DNA of 26,097 nt from the UHGV virus genome UHGV-0386553; one strand, given 5' to 3'. The translations under genes and the position numbers were made by a program. This document shows, piece after piece, positions 1-21,584 of this stretch; within the stretch, counting starts at the first letter, position 1; each line of letters begins with the position of its first letter. Below the pieces are notes generated by a model, which was not told the origin of the DNA, searched no databases, and was given only the letters and a program-made list of their open reading frames with translations. Origin of the DNA: a virus.

Positions 1-683
1 GTATAATATGAGTTAAAAACAGCGGCATTTTTGCCTTTGGATATCAACTCCTTAATCATAAAAATATTATCTTCGTAATCAAAAGGAGAAATTATATCCC
101 TCATTTTGCTTTGAAATGTTCGTTGTCTTGCCCCGCTTCCTGACGGTATAAACCAACCAAAACCACCAACAACTCCGGCGATTGCAGCATCGACATAATT
201 ACGCATTGAGCGATTATTTACAGCATCCTGCTCAAGTGATGGATCTGCAAGGTTAGAAATTCTGTTTTGCTTTGCATCGTAATATTTTGCAAGCAAAGAT
301 GGTTTCATCAATGCACGTCTGAACCACCCAAAACATTGCTGGATCAGCATCGTCAGGTAGTCAAAAGCATCTTCATGCACTTCGGGGAAAAATTTTCCCT
401 GATTGCGAAGGTCTGTCTCCTGCACTACATCAAGCACACGATCTATCGTAATTCGCCATCCAGCAGCAAGCGGAGACGGAAGAACAACAGAACCGCCACT
501 ATAAGTGCCCGCCCCAGTTACCGTATAACCGGTATCCAGAACCAATTCTGTTACGTTCCCGTTCAGGTCAGACACCTGAACAACCAGGTCGGATTTTTTG
601 AAAATACGGAAGGTATACGGAAATGATGTCGTAACGCCGTTACCTGTGTATTCGTTGTGGTCAACTTCGGTTGAGACCGTCAT
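1..683 (-). CDS. Tail fibre / tailspike protein, N-terminal part; gene continues beyond the left edge of the window
   Basis: Manual reverse-strand translation from ATG at 681-683 (GGAG 8 nt upstream) gives MTVSTEVDHNEYTGNGVTTSFPYTFRIFKKSDLVVQV..., open to position 1. The pattern resembles the conserved N-terminal virion-attachment domain of podovirus tail fibres (T7 gp17-like). Absent from the ORF track because no stop lies in the window. Confidence 0.65.
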   Translation of the reverse strand, partial: MTVSTEVDHNEYTGNGVTTSFPYTFRIFKKSDLVVQVSDLNGNVTELVLDTGYTVTGAGTYSGGSVVLPSPLAAGWRITIDRVLDVVQETDLRNQGKFFPEVHEDAFDYLTMLIQQCFGWFRRALMKPSLLAKYYDAKQNRISNLADPSLEQDAVNNRSMRNYVDAAIAGVVGGFGWFIPSGSGARQRTFQSKMRDIISPFDYEDNIFMIKELISKGKNAAVFNSYY

Positions 684-786
684 GTTAAATCTCCAGATAG
701 TCGCAGCACCCGTTGCGCCGCATATCTGGCTATTCTATTACCTGAAAAACCACATATGGATAGAAATACTGTGAATACGAATAGAT

Positions 787-803
787 ATTACCTTTCAGGT
801 AAT
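787..803. promoter_or_regulatory. Operator-like inverted repeat, copy 1 (ATTACC-TTTCA-GGTAAT)
   Basis: Perfect 6-5-6 inverted repeat, about 90 nt upstream of the ORF starting at 879. One of five related copies in the window. Confidence 0.55.
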
Positions 804-839
804 TTGCAAAACGTGCTGGATAGCAAACAAATTATTTGT

Positions 840-859
840 TACTGTATAAATATACAGTT
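840..859 (+). promoter_or_regulatory. LexA (SOS) box
   Basis: tACTGTATAAATATACAGtt is CTGT-N8-ACAG and matches the E. coli LexA consensus TACTGTATATATATACAGTA at 18 of 20 positions. It lies 20 nt upstream of the ATG at 879, overlapping the likely promoter. Confidence 0.7.
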
Positions 860-878
860 ATTGCATGGAGAAGATAAG

Positions 879-1136
879 ATGCAGCAGTATCACTATCCAC
901 TGGAAGACGGATTTACCGAAAGGATTCACACGCCGGGAGGCGTCAGGTCACTGGTGGAGGGATCGCACTTGATGAAATTACTCCGGGATCTCGATAAGGA
1001 TGGATTTAATGTCGATGGCCCACTTGCCGAACTGACTGCACTGATTAACTACGTCACCAGCTCACAGATGTCTATGCGGGATCTGCAAACACATCTCGAC
1101 TATTGTGCCGAACAATTACGAAAGCAAACCACATAA
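879..1136 (+). CDS. Small protein (85 aa) homologous to the C-terminal domain of the Bro-N protein; candidate SOS-controlled antirepressor
   Basis: ATG at 879 with GGAG 8 nt upstream. The track ORF 756..1136 is shortened because the LexA box lies inside the longer frame. Product MQQYHYPLEDGFTERIHTPGGVRSLVEGSHLMKLLRDLDKDGFNVDGPLAELT...RDLQTH aligns by eye with residues about 150-220 of the Bro-N protein (roughly 40 percent identity). Confidence 0.6.
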   Translation: MQQYHYPLEDGFTERIHTPGGVRSLVEGSHLMKLLRDLDKDGFNVDGPLAELTALINYVTSSQMSMRDLQTHLDYCAEQLRKQTT

Positions 1137-1158
1137 AGAAAAGGCCGCAAGAGCGGCC
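1133..1158 (-). terminator. Intrinsic terminator for the leftward two-gene operon
   Basis: GGCCGC-AAGA-GCGGCC perfect 6-bp stem at 1143-1158; on the minus strand it is followed by TTTTCTTT. It sits between the convergent genes 879..1136 and 1160..1666. Confidence 0.55.
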
Positions 1159-1159
1159 A

Positions 1160-1666
1160 TTAACAGTCGAAAAATTCTGGGTCCCACAAACTTGCATCGC
1201 GCGGCATGGATTCTAACTTTTTCAGCCGCAAAATTCTGTCACACTCGACAACTAATTTTTGCTTCTGCTCGTCAATTTCTACTGTCTTATGTGCTGGTTC
1301 ATCCCAATAATCCAGAAGGAAGGCATGGCGTTCAGATGTGACCAGATAAATCACATACACGTCACTGGTTGGGATCTTTTTATGCTTGTTAGTGGTCTTG
1401 TCTTTCTTCCCAGACGCCCAGTTTTTCCAGCATTGTTCCGTACCGCTCTCACCAAACTTGTCAGTATAGTTTCCGATGTTTACATGAACGTGGCGTATGT
1501 GATATTCCAGCATCTCTTTCGGTGGATCCCGAAACAGAGTGTCCTTTCCGAAATCCTTATGATGACCGTAGCGCCAGTGATCTATGAACGCGTTTTTGAT
1601 AGGTATTAGCTCAGGGTCCTTCCCAAAAATTCCAGGGTGAACCAACCCCTGGAATTTATTCGGCAT
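1160..1666 (-). CDS. YafO-like toxin-domain protein (168 aa); putative toxin
   Basis: Track ORF 1160..1729; preferred start is the ATG at 1664-1666 (GGAG 10 nt upstream), which overlaps the last codons of the upstream gene. Motifs FGKDTLFRD, HIRHVHVNIGN and YVIYLVTSERHAFLLDYWDEPAHK recall E. coli YafO (FGRDALYDD, AHIHLAN, HLVYCQGAFDEQAWLLIAILKPEPHK). Comparison is from memory. Confidence 0.55.
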   Translation of the reverse strand: MPNKFQGLVHPGIFGKDPELIPIKNAFIDHWRYGHHKDFGKDTLFRDPPKEMLEYHIRHVHVNIGNYTDKFGESGTEQCWKNWASGKKDKTTNKHKKIPTSDVYVIYLVTSERHAFLLDYWDEPAHKTVEIDEQKQKLVVECDRILRLKKLESMPRDASLWDPEFFDC

Positions 1667-2183
1667 CGTCGTAGAGCTCCTGAGCCATATCTTCAGCAGT
1701 GCGTGCAAACATCCTGCGCGAGATTGCATGGGATTTCTCTACGGACATCTTTGGGACCTCATACATAACAAGTTGATGAGTTTTCTCATCAACTTGAAGT
1801 GGCTTGTATAAACGTTGCCACCTTTCGTTAATTTTATCCTTAAAGCCAGCGAAACCACTTTCCTGACTCTTGTATCCAAAATGAGATAAAGCCAAATTCC
1901 TTTCCATTTCATTCCTAATGTACTCAGCAAGGTTGCAGTGGAATACTTCCCCTTGTTTTTTTAGGCATGCTTCATGGTCTGTAACACTGTGACGGCTCTC
2001 ATATAAGTAAATGCGATAGGAATTTTTATTATCCTCTTCTTCATAATTTCTAATCGCATCAGCAGTTGCCATAGCTGCAGCGTAAGCGGCTGCTTCAATC
2101 ACCATCTCTTGCTCTTTTTCTTTTTCAGGCCTTTTCAAGGCAAAGCGTCTATGCCTCATCGCTGTAACTCTCTTCGTGTTCAT
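1656..2183 (-). CDS. Hypothetical protein (175 aa), basic N-terminus and acidic C-terminus; putative partner or antitoxin of the downstream YafO-like gene
   Basis: Track ORF 1656..2195 starts at TTG; the ATG at 2181-2183 gives MNTKRVTAMRH... Its 3' end overlaps the downstream start (ATGCCGAATAA). The C-terminus is acidic (ELYDDAE). No family recognised. Confidence 0.55.
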   Translation of the reverse strand: MNTKRVTAMRHRRFALKRPEKEKEQEMVIEAAAYAAAMATADAIRNYEEEDNKNSYRIYLYESRHSVTDHEACLKKQGEVFHCNLAEYIRNEMERNLALSHFGYKSQESGFAGFKDKINERWQRLYKPLQVDEKTHQLVMYEVPKMSVEKSHAISRRMFARTAEDMAQELYDDAE

Positions 2184-2195
2184 GGGCACCCCCAA

Positions 2196-2210
2196 CTACC
2201 TTTAGGGTAA
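2196..2210. promoter_or_regulatory. Operator-like inverted repeat, copy 5, degenerate (CTACC-TTTAG-GGTAA)
   Basis: Lies between the predicted -10 and the start codon of the leftward operon. Confidence 0.4.
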
Positions 2211-2212
2211 AC

Positions 2213-2242
2213 ATTCTATCGAAAGTATACGCTCACTGGCAA
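2213..2242 (-). promoter_or_regulatory. Sigma70-like promoter of the two-gene operon
   Basis: Minus-strand reading: TTGCCA (2242-2237), 18-nt spacer, TAGAAT (2218-2213), about 30 nt upstream of the ATG at 2183. Confidence 0.45.
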
Positions 2243-2319
2243 AAAAATAGGCAGGTATTTTCTGAAATGGGATCAATCAAACCACATAGGGTTGAAATGA
2301 CGTGAGTTATGCATTTATT

Positions 2320-2336
2320 ATTACCTTTACGGTAAA
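2320..2336. promoter_or_regulatory. Operator-like inverted repeat, copy 2 (ATTACC-TTTAC-GGTAAA)
   Basis: Inverted repeat in the divergent region between the leftward operon and the Bro-N gene. A possible rightward promoter TTGAAA (2292-2297)-N18-TATTAT (2316-2321) overlaps it. Confidence 0.5.
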
Positions 2337-2369
2337 TTTACATCGCACTCCTCTTGTGCCATAGTAATC

Positions 2370-2391
2370 GGGCACTGGCAAAATCCAGTGC
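2370..2391. promoter_or_regulatory. Perfect 8-bp-stem hairpin (GGCACTGG-CAAAAT-CCAGTGCC) of unknown role
   Basis: Seen directly; it has no flanking T-tract on either strand, so it is not a typical terminator. The motif CACTGGCAAAA recurs at 2233-2243. Confidence 0.35.
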
Positions 2392-2602
2392 CGGGATTGG
2401 CGTTCCGGATTACTACAGAGGCACATATGCCGCATAAGCGGTTTTTTTATGTGTAAAGCGCACCTATTCTATGGTGGGCTGTGTGGGGGCACCGAAAGGT
2501 GCGCCGGGTTCCTTTGTAGCCGGTTACGCCAACCCTGCACAGTTCACCACCAACCGATTGGCGTCGGTAGTGGTGATTAACCTAACTACAAAGGTGATCA
2601 CT

Positions 2603-3289
2603 ATGACTGCTAACGTAACCCCATCTGTTTTTCATTTTGAATCAGAAGCAACCATTCGAGCCATTGTTATTGATGGAAATCCTTGGTTTGTTGCCAAAGA
2701 CGTTATTAAAGCTCTTCAACTGACAAACCCCACTATGTCAATAAAATCTCTTGATGATGATGAAAGGGCTAAATTTAACTTAGGCCGTCAAGGCGAAACC
2801 AATATTATCAACGAGTCAGGCCTCTACACACTGATCCTCCGCTGCCGCGACGCAGTGACACCAGGCACTATCCCCTACCGCTTTCGTAAATGGGTTACAG
2901 GTGAGGTTCTTCCTCAGATCCGTCGCACCGGAAGTTACATTAAAAACTCGCTCCCGCAGGAAGAACGCATAAAGATGGTTGCCGACCAGGTAGCCAACGC
3001 CACGGCGTCAGCAGTAATGCAGGCGATGAAGATAGAGAACAAAACCTACAGCGCCCCGCTGAAGCCCGGCTACCGCAGCCTGATTCATTCGCCGTCTGGT
3101 GTTCTCGGCCTGACGGAGAACTCACTGCTGATGAATCTGCTGAACCAGTTACAGGAAGACGGGCACGACGTATCGGGCGCGGCGGCGGAGCTGACCACCA
3201 TGTTCTGTTACATCGTTGGTGTGAGCAAATGCCTGCGTGATATCCAGACGCACGCGGAGTACATCAACGACAAGGCAGGGTTCTTCTGA
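2603..3289 (+). CDS. Bro-N domain protein (228 aa), antirepressor-like
   Basis: ATG at 2603 with AAGGTG RBS; the track ORF starts at 2471 but the upstream part is GC-rich leader. N-terminus VFHFESEATIRAIVIDGNPWFVAKDVIKALQL...NESGLYTLILRCR matches the Bro-N signature (F.F....R.....G..WF.A.DV...L; NESGLY.LIL). The C-terminal domain is paralogous to the product of 879..1136. Confidence 0.7.
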   Translation: MTANVTPSVFHFESEATIRAIVIDGNPWFVAKDVIKALQLTNPTMSIKSLDDDERAKFNLGRQGETNIINESGLYTLILRCRDAVTPGTIPYRFRKWVTGEVLPQIRRTGSYIKNSLPQEERIKMVADQVANATASAVMQAMKIENKTYSAPLKPGYRSLIHSPSGVLGLTENSLLMNLLNQLQEDGHDVSGAAAELTTMFCYIVGVSKCLRDIQTHAEYINDKAGFF

Positions 3290-3296
3290 CGGCGGC

Positions 3297-3320
3297 GGCA
3301 CAGGGACGTGCCTTTAAATA
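3297..3320 (+). terminator. Weak terminator-like hairpin after the Bro-N gene
   Basis: GGCAC-AGGGAC-GTGCC followed by TTTAAATAATT. Short stem. Confidence 0.3.
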
Positions 3321-3332
3321 ATTCTGTACAGA

Positions 3333-3361
3333 TTGCAGACTGTGGGTGAATAGCGTACTAT
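3333..3361 (+). promoter_or_regulatory. Sigma70-like promoter of the 55-aa / 147-aa cassette
   Basis: TTGCAG (3333-3338), 17-nt spacer, TACTAT (3356-3361); operator copy 3 starts at the end of the -10. Confidence 0.45.
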
Positions 3362-3376
3362 TACCTTAAAGGTAAA
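3360..3376. promoter_or_regulatory. Operator-like inverted repeat, copy 3 (ATTACC-TTAAA-GGTAAA)
   Basis: Overlaps the -10/+1 region and abuts the AGGAGG RBS of the ORF starting at 3388. Confidence 0.55.
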
Positions 3377-3387
3377 GGAGGCGCGAT

Positions 3388-3555
3388 ATGACAGCGTTGA
3401 AAAATCGTACTCAGCACAATGAACAAGCCAAGCAATGCTGGGATGTCATTGGAAAAGTTATGCTTGGCCGCGCAAGCAAAGAGCGCGACAAGGATATGGT
3501 TTACCAGACAGGAACATCTTTCAGCGACTTCAAGGCGGCATTTCGCTCCAAATAG
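3388..3555 (+). CDS. Small hypothetical protein (55 aa)
   Basis: ATG at 3388 preceded by AAGGAGG at optimal spacing; manual translation MTALKNRTQHNEQAKQCWDVIGKVMLGRASKERDKDMVYQTGTSFSDFKAAFRSK, stop TAG at 3553-3555. Below the size cut-off of the ORF track. Confidence 0.45.
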   Translation: MTALKNRTQHNEQAKQCWDVIGKVMLGRASKERDKDMVYQTGTSFSDFKAAFRSK

Positions 3556-3575
3556 AAGCACATCAGGAGTTTTCC

Positions 3576-4016
3576 TTGAAGTTTAACATTAGAATATCTA
3601 ATAGTTTTCTACATGGGGAAAGCAACACCCCTTTCGCTGTAGACGGACCTTTCCTTACTGATGATGAAATAAAAATCATACAAAGTTTTTTAGAGGATGT
3701 TGCCAATGGAAGGGCGCTTGTTGGAAAAAACAAGCCCTCGTGGGTTGATGATAACCATGATAAAATTCCCGGCTCAGACAATTATGAGCAAGAGAATTAT
3801 TGGCATTATCATTGTGGGCCAACATGGTATCCAAACACATTTAAGAATTATACCATTAACTTAAATTTCAACCCTGGCGGAAGGCATTCTAATGAATGCA
3901 TTCATTATGCAAAAAATGATAATGAAATTGTCATTGTTGGATTTTCAAGAGAACACATACCTTTCCTTTCATCAGATGGAAACAACAATCCGCTTTTTAA
4001 TGATGAAGAAGAATAG
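3576..4016 (+). CDS. Hypothetical protein (about 146 aa), AT-rich
   Basis: Track ORF 3435..4016 overlaps the 55-aa ORF in another frame. Preferred start is TTG at 3576 with AGGAG 7 nt upstream; no in-frame ATG exists. A strong terminator follows. Sequence ...WHYHCGPTWYPNTFKNY...; no family recognised. Confidence 0.45.
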   Translation: MKFNIRISNSFLHGESNTPFAVDGPFLTDDEIKIIQSFLEDVANGRALVGKNKPSWVDDNHDKIPGSDNYEQENYWHYHCGPTWYPNTFKNYTINLNFNPGGRHSNECIHYAKNDNEIVIVGFSREHIPFLSSDGNNNPLFNDEEE

Positions 4017-4038
4017 CCCGCGCTGCGGGCTTTTTTGT
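4016..4038 (+). terminator. Rho-independent terminator
   Basis: GCCCGC-GCT-GCGGGC stem followed by TTTTTTGT, immediately after the stop at 4014-4016. Confidence 0.75.
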
Positions 4039-4108
4039 GGGCGAAACAAAAGTCAGTGCTACACTCATTGACGCCACATTGAGGTGGCTTATAGATGGAA
4101 ATTTCACA

Positions 4109-4270
4109 ATGAAAAAAGCATTTGCTGCACTGTTCGTTTTGTTGTCTCTGGTAGCTTCAACTCAGGCCTTTGCCGGTCGTTGTCAGCACGACAGCGACAC
4201 TGCTGCTGACGGCTCCCGCTGCGGTGGGCGTTCTGCGGATTCCCGCCCTGGCGGCGGTGGCATTCGTTAA
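4109..4270 (+). CDS. Small predicted secreted peptide (53 aa; signal peptide plus about 31-aa Gly/Cys-containing mature part)
   Basis: Track ORF 4037..4270 begins inside the terminator T-tract. The ATG at 4109 gives MKKAFAALFVLLSLVASTQAFA followed by GRCQHDSDTAADGSRCGGRSADSRPGGGGIR; a terminator hairpin follows. Possible promoter TTGACG (4068-4073)-N16-TATAGA. Weak RBS. Confidence 0.3.
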   Translation: MKKAFAALFVLLSLVASTQAFAGRCQHDSDTAADGSRCGGRSADSRPGGGGIR

Positions 4271-4276
4271 AAACAA

Positions 4277-4300
4277 GGCCGCGAAAGCGGCCTGTTTGAT
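4277..4300. terminator. Hairpin terminator between convergent genes
   Basis: GGCCGC-GAAA-GCGGCC perfect stem (4277-4292) followed by TGTTTGAT on the plus strand and preceded by AAAACAA; lies between the ORF ending at 4270 (+) and the ORF ending at 4300 (-). Confidence 0.6.
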
Positions 4301-5151
4301 CACTGTGCAGTTTTCGCTGATCGATTTTCAGCTCTAAATTCAAGAACCGTTTCAATATTTCTTTCCTTCAGCATATCAATAACATTTTTATTCATTTGAC
4401 TATCACTGGTTAATAACTGGTAAACGTTGCTTCTCTCTTTATCAGAGTTTTCTTTAACAGCTGCTTTGCATGCCAAATGCTTATTGAAATTTTCTACATC
4501 GCTAGTACAGGAATTTACGGCTGCTGATGAAATATCAGACGCTGAAGAAACACCATCATCCAAACGTTTTATAGCATTTTCTATACATGAGTTAAGGGAA
4601 TAAACGACAACTGAGCGATACCCTTCAGACGCACACCATTCTAAATTTCTTGAAGGATCGAGTGGTTTTACTTCGCTGGATTGAATTAACTTGTCAAAAA
4701 CTGACTTATATTCAATCTGTTTTTTATCTATAGCCCATACTTCAGTAGCTGATTTATAATTCCCCGTATGCCTATTAACATCAAATCCATGTTTTATAAG
4801 CAAATCTGCCCATGAAAGATTTATTGATTCATTGTTATGAGGCCATTTTCCTGTCAGAACCGCCCCCATAGACCCCATATATCCGCCATATGATGGTATA
4901 GCACCATGGCTCAGTAACTTCTCAGCAACCACAGGGCAATTAATTACATAAGAGGCGTAAAGCCCATTCCATAAAGCCCCTCTATAGTAATCGCCACGAT
5001 TAGGTTCTTTTAAGTCGATAGCCTTTGATAATTGTTCACACGTTTTGCATGCATCAAAGTTATCCTTATTGCATTGCAATGAACTGGCAGCTGTAGGATT
5101 TACAGAGACTATTGAAAGCACTATGCCAAAAAACAAATTTATTTTTTTCAT
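4300..5151 (-). CDS. Secreted or periplasmic protein (283 aa) with N-terminal Sec signal peptide; possible ankyrin-like repeats
   Basis: N-terminus MKKINLFFGIVLSIVSVNPTAASS is a typical signal peptide. Its ATG lies 1 nt after the stop of the 1129-aa gene (TAGGATG). AT-rich compared with the structural genes. Segments LLSHGA.. and ADLLIKHGFDVN loosely resemble ankyrin repeats (weak). Confidence 0.65.
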   Translation of the reverse strand: MKKINLFFGIVLSIVSVNPTAASSLQCNKDNFDACKTCEQLSKAIDLKEPNRGDYYRGALWNGLYASYVINCPVVAEKLLSHGAIPSYGGYMGSMGAVLTGKWPHNNESINLSWADLLIKHGFDVNRHTGNYKSATEVWAIDKKQIEYKSVFDKLIQSSEVKPLDPSRNLEWCASEGYRSVVVYSLNSCIENAIKRLDDGVSSASDISSAAVNSCTSDVENFNKHLACKAAVKENSDKERSNVYQLLTSDSQMNKNVIDMLKERNIETVLEFRAENRSAKTAQ

Positions 5152-5152
5152 C

Positions 5153-8100
5153 CTATTTCATCTGCTCTTCAACTTTATTTAGTAATGGTGATATCGCCCA
5201 CAGATTCTGAAAAGGTAGCATTTTACGGACAGCGTGGGTTTGCTGGCTGTCAAATTCTCCGTTAAGTACACCATTTGCAACCGTCGCGGCATCACCGCCA
5301 AGATCAAAGGTAGGACCAAGTAAAGCACCAATAGCATTACGACTCTGAAACCTTGATACCGGAGGCGCACCAAACATCGCGCCAAGACCAAACCTACCGC
5401 CGCTTATGTTCTCAACGGTATTCAGCGGCTCAGAGAGCCAGCCAAGCATTCCGCCCCGGTCGATCCCCTCTTTCACAAGGTTATTCCAGCTGTAGTCGAT
5501 ATCGCGACCGCTTAACTTCTGTTTCATCATATAGACCATTGAGCCAAGCGCAATCGTGCCAAGCGCACCAAGATAGAATGCAGCATCGCCCTGCTGGATA
5601 CCAGATACCAGCACCCTGTTATGCTGTGCGAAGATAAACGTTTTAAACTGCGTGATCATCTTCCAGCCTTCTTTACTAAAAAACAGCGGGGTATCACCTA
5701 CGCCAGGCGTTACAATCACTGAGTCTACATCTTTCAGCACTGCAGACTGGAAAATCTCTCTAGCGAAACGGTCATCCCACAGATGACTATGCCCGGTTAA
5801 CAGCCCGTCCATATCCTCTCCGTGCTTCCCGAATTGCTCCCCGATTCGGCGCAGAACATCTTCATTGATGCCGACCTGTGCCATCTTCCGCATTTCACTT
5901 TTGGAGAGCGTGCCACCAGCAGAAACTTGGCGAGCCGCGTCAAGTATCCTCGACTGCACTATCATCCCGGACCATGATTTAAGTGCGCTGTTCCACTGAT
6001 TCATCAGCGTCCAGTTACCGAATTTCTGCGTCATCCAGTTCAGACCTCGCTCAGCGGCGCTTCTCCGGCTATAGGGGTCAGTAAGATCCGCTATAGCCTT
6101 TGTACGCGTAGACAGGACATAATCAAGCCCAACGGCCATTTCTCGCAAATCCCTGGTTGCAATTTTCACTGAGTCCATATTTTTAAGCATGCTTACCATT
6201 GGTCCGAGAGATTTTCTCAGGCCATGCTGCATCATCGGTCGCATCAGATCAGTTGCAGCGGAGACGGTCATTCCACCAAGCAAACGGAGGAAGTTAATAT
6301 TCCTAGCAACTCGCCCGGCACGAACAAAGAAACTGCGTGGATCTTGAGGTGCGCCGTAAGTACCAAGCAGTCGGTCACGCATAGCCGTAATATCCCTAAT
6401 ATCAGCCTCCCGTTGCTTCTCAAGAGCTGCACGTCGTTTAGGTGTTTTAGCCTCTTTTATTAGCCGGGTATATTCCTCACTAACCTGACGGATTTGCTCC
6501 CCCATATCTTTACGGCCAAACTGCGCAGTCAGCTCAATTTCTGGCGCCACCTGCCGGAGATAACTTTCCATGATGTAGTTAACATCTGATTCAAGAAAAT
6601 CTTCTATACGCTCATCAGGAATAAGCAGCGTTCGGCTTTTAGTGAAACCAGCCCGACCAACGAGTCTCTCTGGGATAATATCGGCTGGTACAAGCCCGGA
6701 AGGTGCGCCTATTATTTTATTCACGATCTCGTCAGCAGCGTCCTCTGCTTCCTCTCGGGATAGAGGCTCCATCTGCTTCAGTGCTCGCTCGCGGCTTGCA
6801 TTCAGCCTTGTGGTTGAATTTGCCCGTTTTTGCAGTCGGCGAAGCTCAGAACGATATTTCCGTGGATTATCCAGCAACTCCATATGGCGCTGATAGACAG
6901 GAAGCTCACTCTTTGCCTGCGCTATATCATCAAGGCGTGTTTTAAGGTCAGAGCTTTCTTTCATCATTCTTGCCTGAAGTTTTTCTGATGAAGTCTCGGC
7001 CAACTCTTTTTCTATTCTTGTAAGACGCGCCTGTGTGTCAGTCTCCTGAGATATAAGCTTATTTCGTTTATCCAGTTCTTCCATGAGTAGAATTTTTTTA
7101 CCAGACCATTTCTCCGCTTCAGCGATTTCACTAGCGAGAGCATCAGCGCGCGGTGCTGATTCCTCTGCAGTTTTTAGCAATGAATTTATCTTTTCAATTC
7201 GCTGACCTGCTTTGTCAGCACCTTTGGCACTAATCCCTTGTATCCAGTTGGCAATTCGCCCTCTGAATTCAGTGCGGTCGGAAAGTATCTTATCGAACTT
7301 ATAAATGCGGGGAAGATAACTTTTCGCCGTCACGACATCGATATCCTCAGGAAGGATCCCCAGTTCCTGCATACGGGCTTTTGTGGTCTCGAAAATGGGG
7401 CGGATTCTGGCGGCTGCTTGTGAAACCTCAGGAATATCACTCTGATCACCACGGCGCATAGCCATGCCAACAGCTTCATTGAAATCAATAAAGTTCATCC
7501 TCTTCACGCCGCGGGCGCTAACAGATTTGCTGTACTGCTGGTAAGCATCACGAGTGGCTTCCATCTGCTTATAAAGCATGGCGTCGTATTGCTTAATCTT
7601 AGTCTCGACTGCCGTAAACGTAGCCAACCCCTCATCATTTTTGGCGAAGAAATAGTTATTTTCGGCAAGCTGCTGGTTAATCTGACGGGAGACAAGAGAT
7701 GGTGATTGAGCCAAGCGGCCAGCAGGAGTGACACTCAACGTTTTGTTAGCAAGTCCAAGTCCAGCGAGCTGTTCCTGATCGAGTGTGGTATTGAAAACCT
7801 GAGCTGCACCAATGCTTTGAGGAGAATCCATACCTCGCAAATGATTACCTACTGAGTTAACCACTGCCTCGCGCGCGCTAGGTCCAGCAAGTAGCTGTGC
7901 ACCAGCACCAAGGATCCCACCAACGAGAGCATCAACAACAACGTTCGATACACTCTCCATCGGTGAGCGAGCTTCCTGAGTGGCCTGCAATGCGGCCTCT
8001 GAAGCAACACTGCCAGCAGCATTGGCTAAAGCAAAACGTCCGGCTGTTTCTGCAATACGACCGCCACGAACGACAGCGCCGAACGGAATAAACATAGAAA

Positions 8101-8542
8101 TCGCATTGAATGGATCTGCTAATCTCATTGCTACAGAAGAGACTGTACCAGCAAATCCCAAGCCTGAATTGTATTCCATGTCAGCTCTCTGCTTATCGAT
8201 TCGATGTTTAATTGCCATTGTTTCTTCATGCGAACCGGAGTTGATAAACGAATCTGCAAAATCTTCATAGCCTTTAATATCTGCTGCATCGTTATCAAAT
8301 GGGTTATATCCTTCAACCCTGTCAAACTGACTGAAAGGAGCACTGGCAATAAAGCTACCCAGCGTGTTATCTATACGAAATGCTGCTTGTCTAGACCTTT
8401 GAACGCGTTGATCACTGGTAAATGGGTTCACAGCAGAAAGCAAAGAAGGTGTTTCCATATAGAAATTACTGTCATCAGGTGCTGCTATTTGCTGAATATC
8501 CTCGCCAAGCAACTCTTTAGGATCCTGTTCATATATCGGCAT
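5153..8542 (-). CDS. Internal virion (DNA-ejection) protein, T7 gp16-like by position (1129 aa)
   Basis: Large ORF at the end of the coupled structural block; long coiled-coil-like central region. Called by size and synteny (gp13-gp14-gp15-gp16-like run after the tail tubular genes). No lytic transglycosylase motif recognised. Confidence 0.6.
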   Translation of the reverse strand: MPIYEQDPKELLGEDIQQIAAPDDSNFYMETPSLLSAVNPFTSDQRVQRSRQAAFRIDNTLGSFIASAPFSQFDRVEGYNPFDNDAADIKGYEDFADSFINSGSHEETMAIKHRIDKQRADMEYNSGLGFAGTVSSVAMRLADPFNAISMFIPFGAVVRGGRIAETAGRFALANAAGSVASEAALQATQEARSPMESVSNVVVDALVGGILGAGAQLLAGPSAREAVVNSVGNHLRGMDSPQSIGAAQVFNTTLDQEQLAGLGLANKTLSVTPAGRLAQSPSLVSRQINQQLAENNYFFAKNDEGLATFTAVETKIKQYDAMLYKQMEATRDAYQQYSKSVSARGVKRMNFIDFNEAVGMAMRRGDQSDIPEVSQAAARIRPIFETTKARMQELGILPEDIDVVTAKSYLPRIYKFDKILSDRTEFRGRIANWIQGISAKGADKAGQRIEKINSLLKTAEESAPRADALASEIAEAEKWSGKKILLMEELDKRNKLISQETDTQARLTRIEKELAETSSEKLQARMMKESSDLKTRLDDIAQAKSELPVYQRHMELLDNPRKYRSELRRLQKRANSTTRLNASRERALKQMEPLSREEAEDAADEIVNKIIGAPSGLVPADIIPERLVGRAGFTKSRTLLIPDERIEDFLESDVNYIMESYLRQVAPEIELTAQFGRKDMGEQIRQVSEEYTRLIKEAKTPKRRAALEKQREADIRDITAMRDRLLGTYGAPQDPRSFFVRAGRVARNINFLRLLGGMTVSAATDLMRPMMQHGLRKSLGPMVSMLKNMDSVKIATRDLREMAVGLDYVLSTRTKAIADLTDPYSRRSAAERGLNWMTQKFGNWTLMNQWNSALKSWSGMIVQSRILDAARQVSAGGTLSKSEMRKMAQVGINEDVLRRIGEQFGKHGEDMDGLLTGHSHLWDDRFAREIFQSAVLKDVDSVIVTPGVGDTPLFFSKEGWKMITQFKTFIFAQHNRVLVSGIQQGDAAFYLGALGTIALGSMVYMMKQKLSGRDIDYSWNNLVKEGIDRGGMLGWLSEPLNTVENISGGRFGLGAMFGAPPVSRFQSRNAIGALLGPTFDLGGDAATVANGVLNGEFDSQQTHAVRKMLPFQNLWAISPLLNKVEEQMK

Positions 8543-20932: not shown

Positions 20933-20933
20933 G

Positions 20934-21009
20934 TGGCATTAGCTCAGTTGGACAGAGCAACCGCCTTCTAAGAGGTTGGTCGCAGGTTCGAATCCTGCAT
21001 GCCACGCCA
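20934..21009 (+). tRNA. tRNA-Arg (anticodon UCU, reads AGA)
   Basis: Manual cloverleaf: acceptor GTGGCAT/ATGCCAC, D-arm GCTC-AGTTGGACA-GAGC, anticodon loop CTTCTAA (U33, anticodon TCT, A37), T-arm GCAGG-TTCGAAT-CCTGC, discriminator G, encoded CCA. One G-A mismatch in the anticodon stem. Resembles E. coli argU. Confidence 0.8.
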
Positions 21010-21207: not shown

Positions 21208-21564
21208 ATGAACGACCAGCAAATCGAAAAAGAAATCGTTGAGAAAGGCAAAACCGCTCCGCGAGTTACGCCTCAATATATCGAAAGCATCATTCTTGAA
21301 GAGCATTTCTTTACTGCTTATGACGGCATTCGTGCTGCCAATATGGGCGTTGGCGATTCATGGACAGCGCATAAATCTACAGACCTCCTGACTTTCTGCG
21401 TACTGGTGCTGAAGAATGGCTTCACCGTCACCGGAGAGAGTGCCTGTGCAAGCCCGGAAAACTTTGATGCAGAAATTGGTCGGAAGATTGCCCGGCAGAA
21501 TGCTGTAAACAAAATCTGGATGCTTGAAGGTTACTTGCTGAAGCAGAAGTTAAGCGAGCAATAA
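21208..21564 (+). CDS. Gp49-like protein (phage N4 gp49 / Sf6 gene 66 family), 118 aa
   Basis: AAGGTGAG RBS; product contains LTFCVLVLKNGFTVTGESACASPENFDAEIGRKIA...KIWMLEGYLL, which matches my recollection of this family. Opposite strand to the structural genes. Confidence 0.55.
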   Translation: MNDQQIEKEIVEKGKTAPRVTPQYIESIILEEHFFTAYDGIRAANMGVGDSWTAHKSTDLLTFCVLVLKNGFTVTGESACASPENFDAEIGRKIARQNAVNKIWMLEGYLLKQKLSEQ

Positions 21565-21568
21565 CACC

Positions 21569-21580
21569 GTGACATGTCAC
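21569..21580. repeat. 12-bp perfect palindrome GTGACATGTCAC, copy 1
   Basis: Seen directly; an identical 14-nt core CGTGACATGTCACA recurs at about 23832-23845. Confidence 0.5.
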
Positions 21581-21584
21581 AAAC

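What the first reader, a model, noticed from the sequence alone, without database searches (positions are those of the whole stretch)
684..5151. 4.4 kb accessory (moron) island between the ejection-protein genes and the tail-fibre gene
From the capsid gene to the 1129-aa gene every gene is on the minus strand and linked by 1-nt overlaps. Between 5151 and the tail-fibre start (683) the organisation breaks: genes on both strands, own promoters, at least three clean intrinsic terminators (1143-1158, 4016-4038, 4277-4300) and AT-rich segments. None of the seven products looks like a virion protein; they include a LexA-controlled gene, a Bro-N protein, a YafO-like pair, two proteins with signal peptides and an unassigned 55/147-aa pair. 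This is the typical site where lambdoid and podovirus prophages carry lysogenic-conversion or anti-phage cargo, and the tail-fibre gene downstream would need readthrough or antitermination.
Basis: partly seen in the sequence, partly recalled or inferred. Interest (0 to 1): 0.7.

Follow-up and report, generated by a model that had tools for sequence, protein, structure and literature searches.

The report
Antirepressor control region plus mobile cargo
The 4.4-kb stretch is real and variable, but its core is the prophage's known induction switch (an SOS-controlled antirepressor and a second one silenced by a small antisense RNA), and toxin-antitoxin-like and exported-protein cassettes have been inserted around that core.

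Summary
The window is an epsilon15/phiV10-type (Uetakevirus-like) E. coli prophage integrated next to guaA. In detail: 684-5151 has genes on both strands, three terminator hairpins at the stated places, AT-rich segments and a perfect LexA box.

The interpretation as a moron island is only half right.
- **Core, gene 1.** The 85-aa LexA-controlled gene is the ortholog of the characterised Salmonella phage SPC32H antirepressor Ant (PDB 5D50). It sits in the same position next to the tailspike gene. The prophage repressor is SPC32H Rep-like and has no self-cleavage domain.
- **Core, gene 2.** The Bro-N gene carries a second Ant-like domain. It lies behind an IsrK/C4 antisense-RNA module (Rfam 71 and 84 bits). 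The two C4 loops match two target pairs, one of which covers the bro ribosome-binding site. Loops and targets co-vary perfectly across 46 alleles in six specificity combinations.
- **Cargo.** The rest is mobile: a YafO-type pair, a 55/146-aa pair whose larger protein is predicted to have a RelE fold and has no curated family, a 53-aa secreted peptide, and a 283-aa exported protein in a hypervariable slot after the last ejection gene.

Island length in relatives ranges from 469 to 6,502 bp. This is the positional and functional analogue of P22 immI. Most parts are known; the interest is modest.

The parts
1..683 (-). 5' part of the tail-fibre/tailspike gene (conserved N-terminal head-binding domain); left flank of the island
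   Evidence: PHROG tail families, E down to 2e-132. RefSeq CDS runs off the window.
842..857 (.). LexA (SOS) box CTGTATAAATATACAG in the ant promoter region
   Evidence: Perfect match. Present about 40 nt upstream of 111 of 112 close stand-alone ant genes, and absent upstream of 0 of 120 Bro-fused Ant-like domains. A box sits at the same position in SPC32H.
879..1136 (+). ant: 85-aa SPC32H-type antirepressor, divergent from the tail-fibre gene
   Evidence: PDB 5D50_E 'Anti-repressor protein', E=4.6e-47. 86.9% identical to the annotated SPC32H ant. Same neighbourhood in SPC32H.
1143..1158 (-). Terminator hairpin, with its T-run on the minus strand, between convergent ant and the YafO-family gene; also a cassette border
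   Evidence: Homology with relatives breaks at 1136/1158.
1160..1666 (-). 168-aa YafO-family toxin-like gene
   Evidence: RefSeq name. 11 of 12 family members hit Pfam YafO_toxin; the window copy does not at E<=0.01.
1656..2183 (-). 175-aa upstream partner of the YafO-like gene (candidate antitoxin), overlapping it by 11 nt
   Evidence: No family beyond PHROG 9503, function unknown. YafO-like toxins in sister islands have at least five unrelated upstream partners.
2337..2365 (+). Predicted isrK promoter (TTTACA-17-CATAGT with TG)
   Evidence: It ends 6 nt before the first position of the isrK model match.
2372..2448 (+). IsrK-like sRNA with its own terminator (hairpin 2429-2442 plus U-run). 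It contains C4 target sites a1 (2397-2403) and b1 (2413-2421).
   Evidence: Rfam RF01394, 71.2 bits (gathering score 50). RF03163 c4-a1b1, 39 bits. Terminator; site coordinates.
2467..2554 (+). C4-type antisense RNA, with loop b' at 2511-2519 and single-stranded a' at 2526-2532
   Evidence: Rfam RF01695, 84 bits (gathering score 45), full length. Covariation with its targets in 46 alleles.
2558..2594 (+). C4 target sites a2 (2558-2564) and b2 (2586-2594). b2 covers the Shine-Dalgarno sequence of bro.
   Evidence: three matches to the composite pattern in the window against 0 expected.
2603..3289 (+). bro/ant2: 228-aa protein with a Bro-N domain and a C-terminal Ant-like domain. RefSeq calls a 268-aa form from 2483.
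   Evidence: Pfam Bro-N, E=5e-20. Residues 147-223 match 5D50_E, E=1e-13. 38 of 46 alleles have an in-frame stop 5-16 codons upstream of this ATG. The homologous ZX5 ORF4 promotes the lytic cycle when overexpressed (PMC9782041).
3388..3555 (+). 55-aa candidate antitoxin of the 146-aa protein
   Evidence: A homologous small ORF precedes the 146-aa homologues in non-phage contexts in Erwinia and Proteus.
3576..4016 (+). 146-aa toxin-like protein with a predicted RelE/YoeB/HigB fold and no curated family; AT-rich
4015..4031 (.). Terminator hairpin (strong on +, weak on -) after the 146-aa gene; cassette border
4109..4270 (+). 53-aa secreted peptide gene, a classical moron bracketed by two terminators
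   Evidence: PHROG 14503, 'moron... membrane associated protein'. GC 0.574. Present in 67 of 124 unique islands and 498 of 5426 E. coli genomes.
4276..4293 (-). Terminator hairpin between convergent p53 and the 283-aa gene; on the minus strand it ends the late/ejection operon
4300..5151 (-). 283-aa exported protein with a signal peptide, many conserved Cys and a helical-repeat fold prediction. It occupies the hypervariable slot 1 nt after the last ejection gene.
   Evidence: GC 0.367. Found in 23 of 124 unique islands and 106 of 5426 genomes.
5153..8542 (-). 1129-aa DUF919 internal virion/ejection protein; right flank of the island
   Evidence: RefSeq annotation.

Best explanation
Region 684-5151 is the antirepressor (secondary immunity) control region of an epsilon15/phiV10/SPC32H-type temperate podophage. 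It occupies the same place as immI in P22 and has been enlarged by mobile cassettes.

1. SOS arm. In the lysogen, host LexA sits on the box at 842-857 and keeps ant (879-1136) off. DNA damage removes LexA, and the 85-aa Ant is made. Ant binds the prophage repressor Rep (two HTH domains, no self-cleavage domain, encoded about 21.5 kb from the island and outside the window). This breaks up the Rep tetramer and induces the prophage. Homology, the LexA box and the position are shown here. The biochemistry is taken from SPC32H.

2. RNA arm. Transcripts from the isrK promoter either stop at the IsrK terminator, giving an sRNA that carries sites a1/b1, or read through into a C4-type RNA and the bro mRNA. 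The C4 loops a' and b' pair with a2/b2, and b2 covers the bro Shine-Dalgarno sequence. This blocks synthesis of the Bro-N::Ant-domain antirepressor. IsrK, which carries the same sites, can compete for C4. Pairing and covariation are shown here. Silencing, and the role of Bro-Ant in induction or in overcoming a resident prophage's immunity, are inferred from P1/P7 c4-ant, Gifsy-1 isrK-anrP and overexpression of ZX5 ORF4.

3. Cargo. Four cassettes are interchangeable and absent from most relatives: p175 plus the YafO-like gene; p55 plus the RelE-fold p146; the p53 peptide; and the exported p283. The first two most likely act as toxin-antitoxin or abortive-infection modules. The last most likely acts as an envelope-level exclusion factor. 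These functions are inferred only.
For: Ant and Rep:
- Ant matches 5D50_E at E=4.6e-47, and the annotated SPC32H ant is 86.9% identical.
- In SPC32H, ant has the same divergent position next to the tailspike gene and a LexA box at the same place.
- Rep matches 5D50_A at E=4e-42 and has HTH domains only.
- The LexA box is conserved in 111 of 112 close homologues.
- The literature summarises Ant as LexA-controlled and as acting by breaking the Rep tetramer (PMC7380047; PMC9638917).

RNA module:
- The Rfam C4 and isrK matches are above their gathering scores.
- The composite a/b pattern is found exactly three times in the window against 0 expected.
- Three a' variants and three b' variants each match their own a1/a2 and b1/b2 in all 46 unique alleles.
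- The Bro C-terminal domain matches Ant at E=1e-13.
- The Gifsy-1 isrK-orf45-anrP mechanism is described in PMC4825925.
- ZX5 Bro-N ORF4 lowers the number of lysogens about 1000-fold when overexpressed (PMC9782041).

Variability and cargo:
- Mosaic structure across relatives.
- Prevalence in E. coli genomes: ant 531, YafO cassette 58, p55/p146 77, p283 106.
- P22 layout.
- p146 fold and the conserved two-gene module outside phages.
Against: - Nothing here was measured in this prophage. LexA binding, the Ant-Rep interaction, C4 processing and bro silencing all rest on homology and covariation.
- Rep is only distantly similar to SPC32H Rep. I did not compute the identity; the phmmer E-value is 4e-42. 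The ZX5 paper gives 42% between the phiV10-type and epsilon15 repressors.
- There is no icd-like ORF between C4 and bro as there is in P1.
- In this allele a 1-nt difference fuses the orf45-like frame to bro, so the Gifsy-1 translational-coupling step may not apply.
- Bro alleles differ strongly between phages that share the same Rep, so the cognate Rep may not be the only target of Bro-Ant.
- The window's YafO-like protein does not itself reach Pfam significance.
- p146 shows no profile similarity to YafO.
- The cargo gives no PADLOC hit.
Confidence: 0.8

Rival explanations
1. Pure accessory (moron) island. All genes between the ejection genes and the tail fibre are lysogenic-conversion or anti-phage cargo, dispensable for the phage's own life cycle.
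For: Island length varies from 469 to 6502 bp. Cassettes are bounded by terminators. Some genes are AT-rich. PHROG labels p53 a moron.
Against: ant is in 121 of 124 unique islands, always next to the tail-fibre gene and with a LexA box. It is the ortholog of the antirepressor that SPC32H uses for induction (role as summarised in PMC7380047), and Rep has no self-cleavage domain. The isrK/C4/bro module is a regulatory circuit with co-evolving RNA partners. No known defence system was detected.
Confidence: 0.12
2. The Bro-N::Ant protein is aimed mainly at competitors. It inactivates the repressors of other resident prophages on superinfection, rather than regulating its own phage. The C4 specificity classes would then be the product of an arms race between related prophages.
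For: There are six a'/b' specificity combinations. Several prophages carry two modules of different specificity. The module is found in 941 E. coli genomes, more than the 531 that carry this ant. It also matches many Stx phages. Bro alleles diverge while Rep is identical among phiV10, ZX5 and phiv142-3. P1/P7 and P22 Ant act in this way (established knowledge).
Against: ZX5 ORF4 overexpression affects its own phage's lysogeny. The Gifsy-1 AnrP/IsrK locus is needed for induction of Gifsy-1 itself (PMC4825925). This reading is compatible with the main explanation rather than exclusive of it.
Confidence: 0.35
3. The 85-aa ORF is a decayed remnant (a 3' fragment) of a duplicated bro/ant gene and has no function of its own.
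For: It aligns with the C-terminal third of Bro at 41% identity.
Against: It is 97-100% conserved across 80 loci. It is full length relative to the crystallised SPC32H Ant and has its own Shine-Dalgarno sequence and conserved LexA box.
Confidence: 0.01
4. The two-gene cassettes (p175/YafO-like and p55/p146) are not toxin-antitoxin systems. They would be, for example, anti-defence or regulatory pairs, and p283 an ordinary periplasmic moron unrelated to phage exclusion.
Confidence: 0.25

Closest known systems
SPC32H Rep-Ant antirepression system (Salmonella epsilon15-like podophage; Kim & Ryu 2013, Kim et al. 2016; PDB 5D50/5D4Z)
   Same: Ant is 86.9% identical and the same length. The gene has the same position and orientation next to the tailspike gene and a LexA box at the same distance. 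Rep is homologous, with two HTH domains and no peptidase domain.
   Different: SPC32H has the minimal island: ant plus a 46-aa membrane protein. Here four cassettes and the isrK/C4/bro module lie between ant and the structural genes. Rep is only distantly similar.
P1/P7 immI (c4 antisense RNA, icd, ant) and Rfam families C4 (RF01695) and c4-a1b1 (RF03163)
   Same: A full-length C4 match. Two loop sequences are complementary to site pairs upstream (a1/b1) and downstream (a2/b2), and the downstream pair covers a ribosome-binding site ahead of an antirepressor gene. The specificity variants recall P1/P7 heteroimmunity.
   Different: There is no icd gene. The target is the antirepressor's own ribosome-binding site. 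The antirepressor is a Bro-N::SPC32H-Ant-domain fusion, not a P1 Ant. The host phage is a podovirus.
Gifsy-1 isrK-orf45(STnc1160)-anrP locus (Hershko-Shalev et al. 2016, PMC4825925)
   Same: An IsrK match above the gathering score, with its terminator, followed by a C4-like RNA region and an antirepressor gene. As in Gifsy-1, the prophage also has a separate LexA-controlled small antirepressor.
   Different: In this allele the orf45-like frame is fused in frame to bro. No AntQ-type antiterminator is adjacent. The trans-activation of translation by IsrK described for Gifsy-1 is untested here.
P22 immI region with sieA (sieA, mnt, arc, sar RNA, ant) between gene 16 and tailspike gene 9
   Same: The genomic position is identical, between the ejection-protein genes and the tailspike gene. 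The logic is the same: an antirepressor kept silent partly by an antisense RNA, and an envelope protein gene directly after the last ejection gene.
   Different: The window has no Mnt, Arc or sar homologue, and the antirepressor family differs. The sister phage TL-2011b additionally carries an Arc-Ant pair in this island.
Type II toxin-antitoxin systems of the YafO and RelE/ParE superfamilies
   Same: A small upstream gene overlaps or abuts a toxin-like gene of 146-168 aa. Relatives of the 168-aa protein hit Pfam YafO_toxin. The 146-aa protein is predicted to have a RelE fold. Partners are shuffled among relatives.
   Different: The 175-aa partner is unlike YafN or Phd. The 146-aa family has no curated model and no detectable sequence link to YafO or RelE. 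Toxicity is untested.

Membership tests
SPC32H-type Rep/Ant antirepression | Small (about 86 aa) Ant protein homologous to SPC32H Ant | tested here: met
   5D50_E at E=4.6e-47 over residues 2-85; 86.9% identity to SPC32H ant.
SPC32H-type Rep/Ant antirepression | LexA box in the ant promoter | tested here: met
   Perfect box at 842-857. Conserved in 111 of 112 close homologues. Same place in SPC32H.
SPC32H-type Rep/Ant antirepression | Cognate repressor homologous to Rep and lacking a RecA-dependent self-cleavage (S24) domain | tested here: met
   L005:21497-22081, outside the window: 5D50_A at E=4e-42. Pfam finds only HTH domains.
SPC32H-type Rep/Ant antirepression | Ant binds Rep and releases it from DNA; ant is needed for SOS induction | not testable with these tools
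   Needs biochemistry and genetics. Known for SPC32H only (secondary citations).
C4 antisense RNA / P1-type immI | RNA matching the C4 covariance model above the gathering score | tested here: met
   RF01695, 84 bits against 45, positions 1-87 of 87.
C4 antisense RNA / P1-type immI | Loops a' and b' complementary to site pairs a1/b1 upstream and a2/b2 downstream | tested here: met
   Exact 7-nt complementarity for a' with a1 and a2, and exact 9-nt complementarity for b' with b2. b1 (CTACAGAGG) pairs with b' over 9 nt only with one G-U wobble; the exact match is 5 nt (TGTAG/CTACA). Coordinates. The composite pattern, written with R to accept both b1 and b2, occurs 3 times against 0 expected. 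All 46 alleles co-vary.
C4 antisense RNA / P1-type immI | Downstream target overlaps the ribosome-binding site that controls antirepressor synthesis | tested here: met
   b2 at 2586-2594 (CTACAAAGG) includes the Shine-Dalgarno sequence, 8 nt before ATG 2603.
C4 antisense RNA / P1-type immI | icd gene between c4 and ant, with ant translation coupled to icd | tested here: not met
   Only 48 nt separate C4 from the bro ATG. No separate ORF lies there in this allele.
Gifsy-1 isrK locus | IsrK sRNA with an intrinsic terminator, upstream of an antirepressor gene | tested here: met
   RF01394, 71.2 bits against 50. Hairpin 2429-2442 plus T-run. bro lies downstream.
Gifsy-1 isrK locus | Short upstream ORF (orf45) whose translation is coupled to the antirepressor | tested here: inconclusive
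   Most alleles have an in-frame stop 5-16 codons before the bro ATG. In the window's allele the frame runs into bro.
YafO toxin family (type II TA) | Match to Pfam PF13957 YafO_toxin | tested here: inconclusive
   The window protein gives no hit at E<=1, but 11 of 12 aligned relatives hit. RefSeq names it YafO family.
YafO toxin family (type II TA) | Adjacent upstream antitoxin gene (YafN/Phd type in E. coli K-12) | tested here: not met
   An upstream gene overlaps by 11 nt, but it is 175 aa with no Phd/YefM or other Pfam match.
RelE/ParE toxin superfamily (for the 146-aa protein) | RelE-like fold | tested here: met
RelE/ParE toxin superfamily (for the 146-aa protein) | Sequence membership in a curated toxin family | tested here: not met
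   No Pfam, NCBIfam or PADLOC hit for the protein or for 56 diverse relatives. No PDB sequence hit.
RelE/ParE toxin superfamily (for the 146-aa protein) | Toxicity neutralised by the adjacent small protein | not testable with these tools
   Only the conserved gene pairing is shown.
Moron (Hendrix-type autonomous insert in a late operon) | Presence/absence polymorphism among close relatives, own terminator, deviant composition | tested here: met
   Holds for p53, p55/p146, the YafO cassette and p283. Does not hold for ant (121 of 124 unique islands).
P22 immI (mnt-arc-sar-ant) | Arc/Mnt repressors and sar RNA | tested here: not met
   No Arc/Mnt-type Pfam or PHROG hit among the eight products and no sar match in Rfam. 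The position is the same.

The most novel reading that the evidence does not exclude
Three things could lie beyond the known parts.

(a) The two short C4 loops may form a combinatorial RNA code. Three a' variants and three b' variants were seen, in six of the nine possible combinations. This code would sort E. coli epsilon15-like and Stx-type prophages into antirepressor-immunity groups, with Bro-N::Ant serving as a weapon that induces resident competitors of a different code.

(b) p55/p146 may be a previously uncurated toxin-antitoxin or abortive-infection family with a RelE fold and a WHYH...IHY...H active site.

(c) The position 1-11 nt after the last ejection gene may be a hypervariable slot for exported proteins that exclude superinfecting relatives in the periplasm. 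At least 16 unrelated proteins with a signal peptide, lipobox or transmembrane segment occupy it.
Probability: 0.3. Interest if true: 0.55.

Novelty: new member of a known kind. Interest (0 to 1): 0.35.

Why it matters
- **Annotation.** These prophages occur in about 10% of complete E. coli genomes. Their ant gene is labelled 'hypothetical protein' in most relatives' records and their regulatory RNAs are not annotated in the records examined, so their induction circuitry is invisible in databases. This case supplies the correct reading.
- **Two inputs.** One repressor family appears to be controlled through two paralogous antirepressor domains. One responds to SOS through LexA. The other is governed by an RNA whose specificity can be read from the sequence. 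That makes cross-induction and immunity between co-resident prophages predictable and testable.
- **Candidates for defence screens.** The cargo slots offer an uncharacterised RelE-fold pair and a varied set of exported proteins.
- **Limits.** None of this is a new kind of system.

Tried and rejected
- **p146 as a YafO relative.** I tested this because YafO genes fill the same slot in sister phages. hhalign gave 0.2% and 0.6% probability. The motif order looks similar by eye, but that is not evidence.
- **PADLOC.** On the eight window proteins and on ten cargo representatives from sister islands it gave nothing significant.
- **NCBIfam.** Nothing for any of the eight proteins.
- **Pfam on sister-island cargo.** Only DUF4760 and DUF6236.
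- **Fold searches.** The BFVD search for p146 found nothing, and the afdb50 library was unavailable.
- **Promoter scan.** It cannot support 'own promoters' (11 sites against 11.3 expected).
- **Papers.** The two primary SPC32H papers (PMC3807360, PMC4983836) are not held. The SPC32H mechanism is therefore cited through PDB entries and secondary sources.
- **Rejected readings.** The weak Rfam Trp_leader match at 3932-4038 (E=0.71) is chance. The 85-aa ORF is not a pseudogene fragment.

Full report
**Identity of the window.** The first 8 kb match the chromosome of E. coli GN02461 at 100%. They match phage EC.W1-9 at 98.9% and have partial matches to phiV10, TL-2011b, phiv142-3 and vB_EcoP_ZX5. 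In GN02461 the element lies between yfgI and guaA and has an integrase next to guaA. This is the attachment site reported for phiV10, epsilon15 and ZX5 (PMC9782041). The window is therefore an epsilon15/phiV10-type (Uetakevirus-like) temperate podophage.

**Observation check.** RefSeq annotates eight CDS between the tail-fibre start (683) and the 1129-aa DUF919 gene (5153-8542):
- On the + strand: 879-1136, the Bro gene ending at 3289, 3388-3555, 3576-4016 and 4109-4270.
- On the - strand: 1160-1666, 1656-2183 and 4300-5151.

Terminator-like hairpins occur at 1143-1158, 4015-4031 and 4276-4293. Such sites are enriched in 1-6000 (16 against 5.5 +/- 1.8). Promoter-like sites are not enriched (11 against 11.3). 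GC falls to 0.36-0.37 in the 146-aa and 283-aa genes, against 0.48-0.50 in the structural genes. A perfect LexA box lies at 842-857.

Two details need correcting. The 1-nt overlaps hold only from the capsid-staple gene to the 1129-aa gene. The 283-aa gene is still on the minus strand, 1 nt after the 1129-aa gene.

**The LexA-controlled gene is a known antirepressor.**
- The 85-aa product matches PDB 5D50 chain E, 'Anti-repressor protein', at E=4.6e-47 over its whole length. It is 86.9% identical to the gene annotated ant in Salmonella phage SPC32H.
- In SPC32H, ant has the same divergent position next to the tailspike gene and a LexA box at the same distance.
- The prophage's repressor candidate (194 aa, outside the window) matches the SPC32H Rep chain at E=4e-42. 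It has HTH domains only and no S24 peptidase domain.
- Reviews describe this class as LexA-controlled antirepressors that inactivate a non-cleavable repressor (PMC7380047). They describe SPC32H Ant as a tetramer that breaks the Rep tetramer (PMC9638917).
- A perfect box lies about 40 nt upstream of 111 of 112 close stand-alone ant genes. A one-mismatch box lies upstream of 13 of 14 homologues at 60-90% identity. No box lies upstream of any of the 120 Bro-fused Ant-like domains.

**The Bro-N gene is a second antirepressor under antisense-RNA control.** Rfam finds an IsrK-like sRNA at 2372-2448 (71.2 bits, gathering score 50). It finds a full-length C4 antisense RNA at 2467-2554 (84 bits, gathering score 45). 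It also finds the c4-a1b1 target motif at 2359-2411, below threshold because it overlaps isrK.
- A promoter-like site with an extended -10 ends 6 nt before the IsrK start, and a hairpin plus T-run ends IsrK.
- The C4 hairpin loop b' (2511-2519, CCTTTGTAG) and the single-stranded a' (2526-2532, ACGCCAA) are complementary to a1/b1 inside IsrK (2397-2403, 2413-2421). b1 pairs with b' with one G-U wobble.
- They are also complementary to a2/b2 (2558-2564, 2586-2594). b2 covers the Shine-Dalgarno sequence 8 nt before ATG 2603.
- The composite pattern occurs exactly three times in the window and never in shuffles.
- In 46 unique alleles from 72 modules, three a' variants (ACGCCAA, AGACCAA, GTGCAAA) always go with TTGGCGT, TTGGTCT or TTTGCAC at both a sites. 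Three b' variants (CCTTTGTAG, CCACTTAG, CCTTTTAG) always go with their complements at both b sites. Six combinations were seen.
- Some prophages carry two modules of different specificity.
- The protein has a Bro-N domain, and residues 147-223 match SPC32H Ant at E=1e-13.
- The conserved start is ATG 2603 (228 aa). In 38 of 46 alleles an in-frame stop lies 5-16 codons upstream, so the 268-aa RefSeq call is not conserved.
- The arrangement is that of Gifsy-1 isrK-orf45(STnc1160)-anrP (PMC4825925) and of P1 c4-icd-ant (established knowledge), but without icd.
- The homologous Bro-N ORF4 of ZX5 reduces lysogens about 1000-fold when overexpressed.

**Cargo: the two-gene cassettes.**
- YafO cassette (about 1159-2314). 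This cassette is absent from phiV10 and most relatives. Eleven of twelve relatives of the 168-aa protein hit Pfam YafO_toxin; the window copy does not. Its 175-aa upstream partner has no known domain. YafO-like genes in sister islands have at least five unrelated partners.
- p55/p146 cassette (about 3300/3376-4011). In sister phages this slot holds YafO-family pairs instead.
  - The 146-aa family has 120 clusters at 50% identity and no Pfam model, even for 56 diverse members.
  - H77, H79 and H127 are invariant.
  - The small-plus-large gene pair also occurs next to accA in Erwinia and in a Proteus element.

**Cargo: the single genes.**
- p53 is a secreted 53-aa peptide gene lying between two terminators. 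It is GC-rich and is the most frequent cargo.
- p283 has a signal peptide, many invariant Cys and an all-helical predicted fold with weak ankyrin-like matches.
- The position directly after the last ejection gene (same strand, gap 1-11 nt) is filled in 82 of 124 unique islands by at least 16 unrelated small proteins. Most have a signal peptide, a lipobox or transmembrane segments. One of them, a 137-aa lipoprotein, shares a C-terminal motif with p283.

**Variability.**
- Island length is 645-6278 bp (median 3268) in 77 loci chosen through Ant. It is 469-6502 bp in loci chosen through the ejection gene.
- The shortest islands in the Ant-selected set (645 bp) have room only for ant. SPC32H carries ant plus a 46-aa membrane-protein gene.
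- Of 124 unique islands, Ant is in 121, Bro in 94, p53 in 67, p283 in 23 and YafO-like genes in 21.
- Among 5426 complete E. coli genomes the counts are:
  - ant segment: 531
  - isrK/C4 segment: 941
  - p53: 498
  - p283: 106
  - p55/p146: 77
  - YafO cassette: 58

**Synthesis.** P22 carries sieA, mnt, arc, the sar RNA and ant between ejection gene 16 and tailspike gene 9. The window's island is the positional and functional counterpart in epsilon15-type phages. It combines an antirepressor region that has an SOS input and an RNA-gated input with an envelope-protein slot and interchangeable toxin-like cassettes. 'All cargo' is wrong for the two regulators.

**Open point.** On the minus strand, the hairpins at 4276-4293 and 1143-1158 and the antisense ant gene lie between the late operon and the tail-fibre gene. 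This is so even in minimal-island relatives. The tail-fibre gene therefore needs either readthrough or a promoter in 684-878. I could not decide between these.

**Verdict.** Most parts are already described. Ant/Rep was characterised in SPC32H, C4 and IsrK are Rfam families, a Bro-N antirepressor was tested in ZX5, and YafO is a known family. The modestly new items are the C4 specificity classes in this phage group, the uncurated RelE-fold pair, and the exported-protein slot.

Noticed in passing
window 787-801 (and 735-750); L172 3904-3918: The palindrome TTACCTTTCAGGTAA lies just upstream of the ant -35 region. It is conserved as TTACCTTACAGGTAA at the same place in SPC32H. It may be an operator for a second regulator of ant or of the divergent tail-fibre gene.
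   Followed up: partly
window 2471-2602: The window's allele has one extra T in the C4 hairpin loop (GGGTTCC against GGGTCC). This puts the short orf45-like frame, which starts inside C4, in frame with bro. It explains the 268-272-aa ORF and the RefSeq start at 2483. Most alleles stop 5-16 codons before the bro ATG.
   Followed up: partly
L006, L025, L041, L048, L054, L073 (IMG/VR relatives): These prophages carry two isrK/C4/bro modules in one island, on opposite strands, and always with different a'/b' specificity.
   Followed up: partly
L004 7145-8329 (phage TL-2011b): This sister phage has a P22-type Arc-like repressor plus Ant pair in the same island, in addition to the SPC32H-type ant and the C4/bro module. 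That makes three antirepressor genes in one region.
   Followed up: no
window 5152 and the equivalent junction in 124 unique islands: The position 1-11 nt after the last ejection gene is occupied by at least 16 unrelated small proteins with a signal peptide, lipobox or transmembrane segment. P22 has sieA at the corresponding site.
   Followed up: partly
window 20933-21009 and about 21213-21584: A tRNA-Arg(TCT) gene and a plus-strand Gp49-family gene interrupt the minus-strand late region between the portal-side genes and the terminase genes. This is a second small break in the operon.
   Followed up: no
window 2340-2602 against E. coli genomes and the phage collection: The isrK/C4 segment matches 941 E. 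coli genomes, more than the 531 that carry this ant. The first 12 kb of the window match about 100 records named as Stx-converting phages, and most records of that search fall in the 80-90% identity band. I did not map which segment those records match. If it is this segment, the RNA-antirepressor module also moves among lambdoid phages.
   Followed up: partly
window 2213-2321: Two of the three best promoter-like sites in 1-6000 (10 of 12 matches each) lie back to back in the spacer between the 175-aa gene and isrK, at 2242-2213 (-) and 2292-2321 (+). This fits divergent cassette promoters.
   Followed up: no
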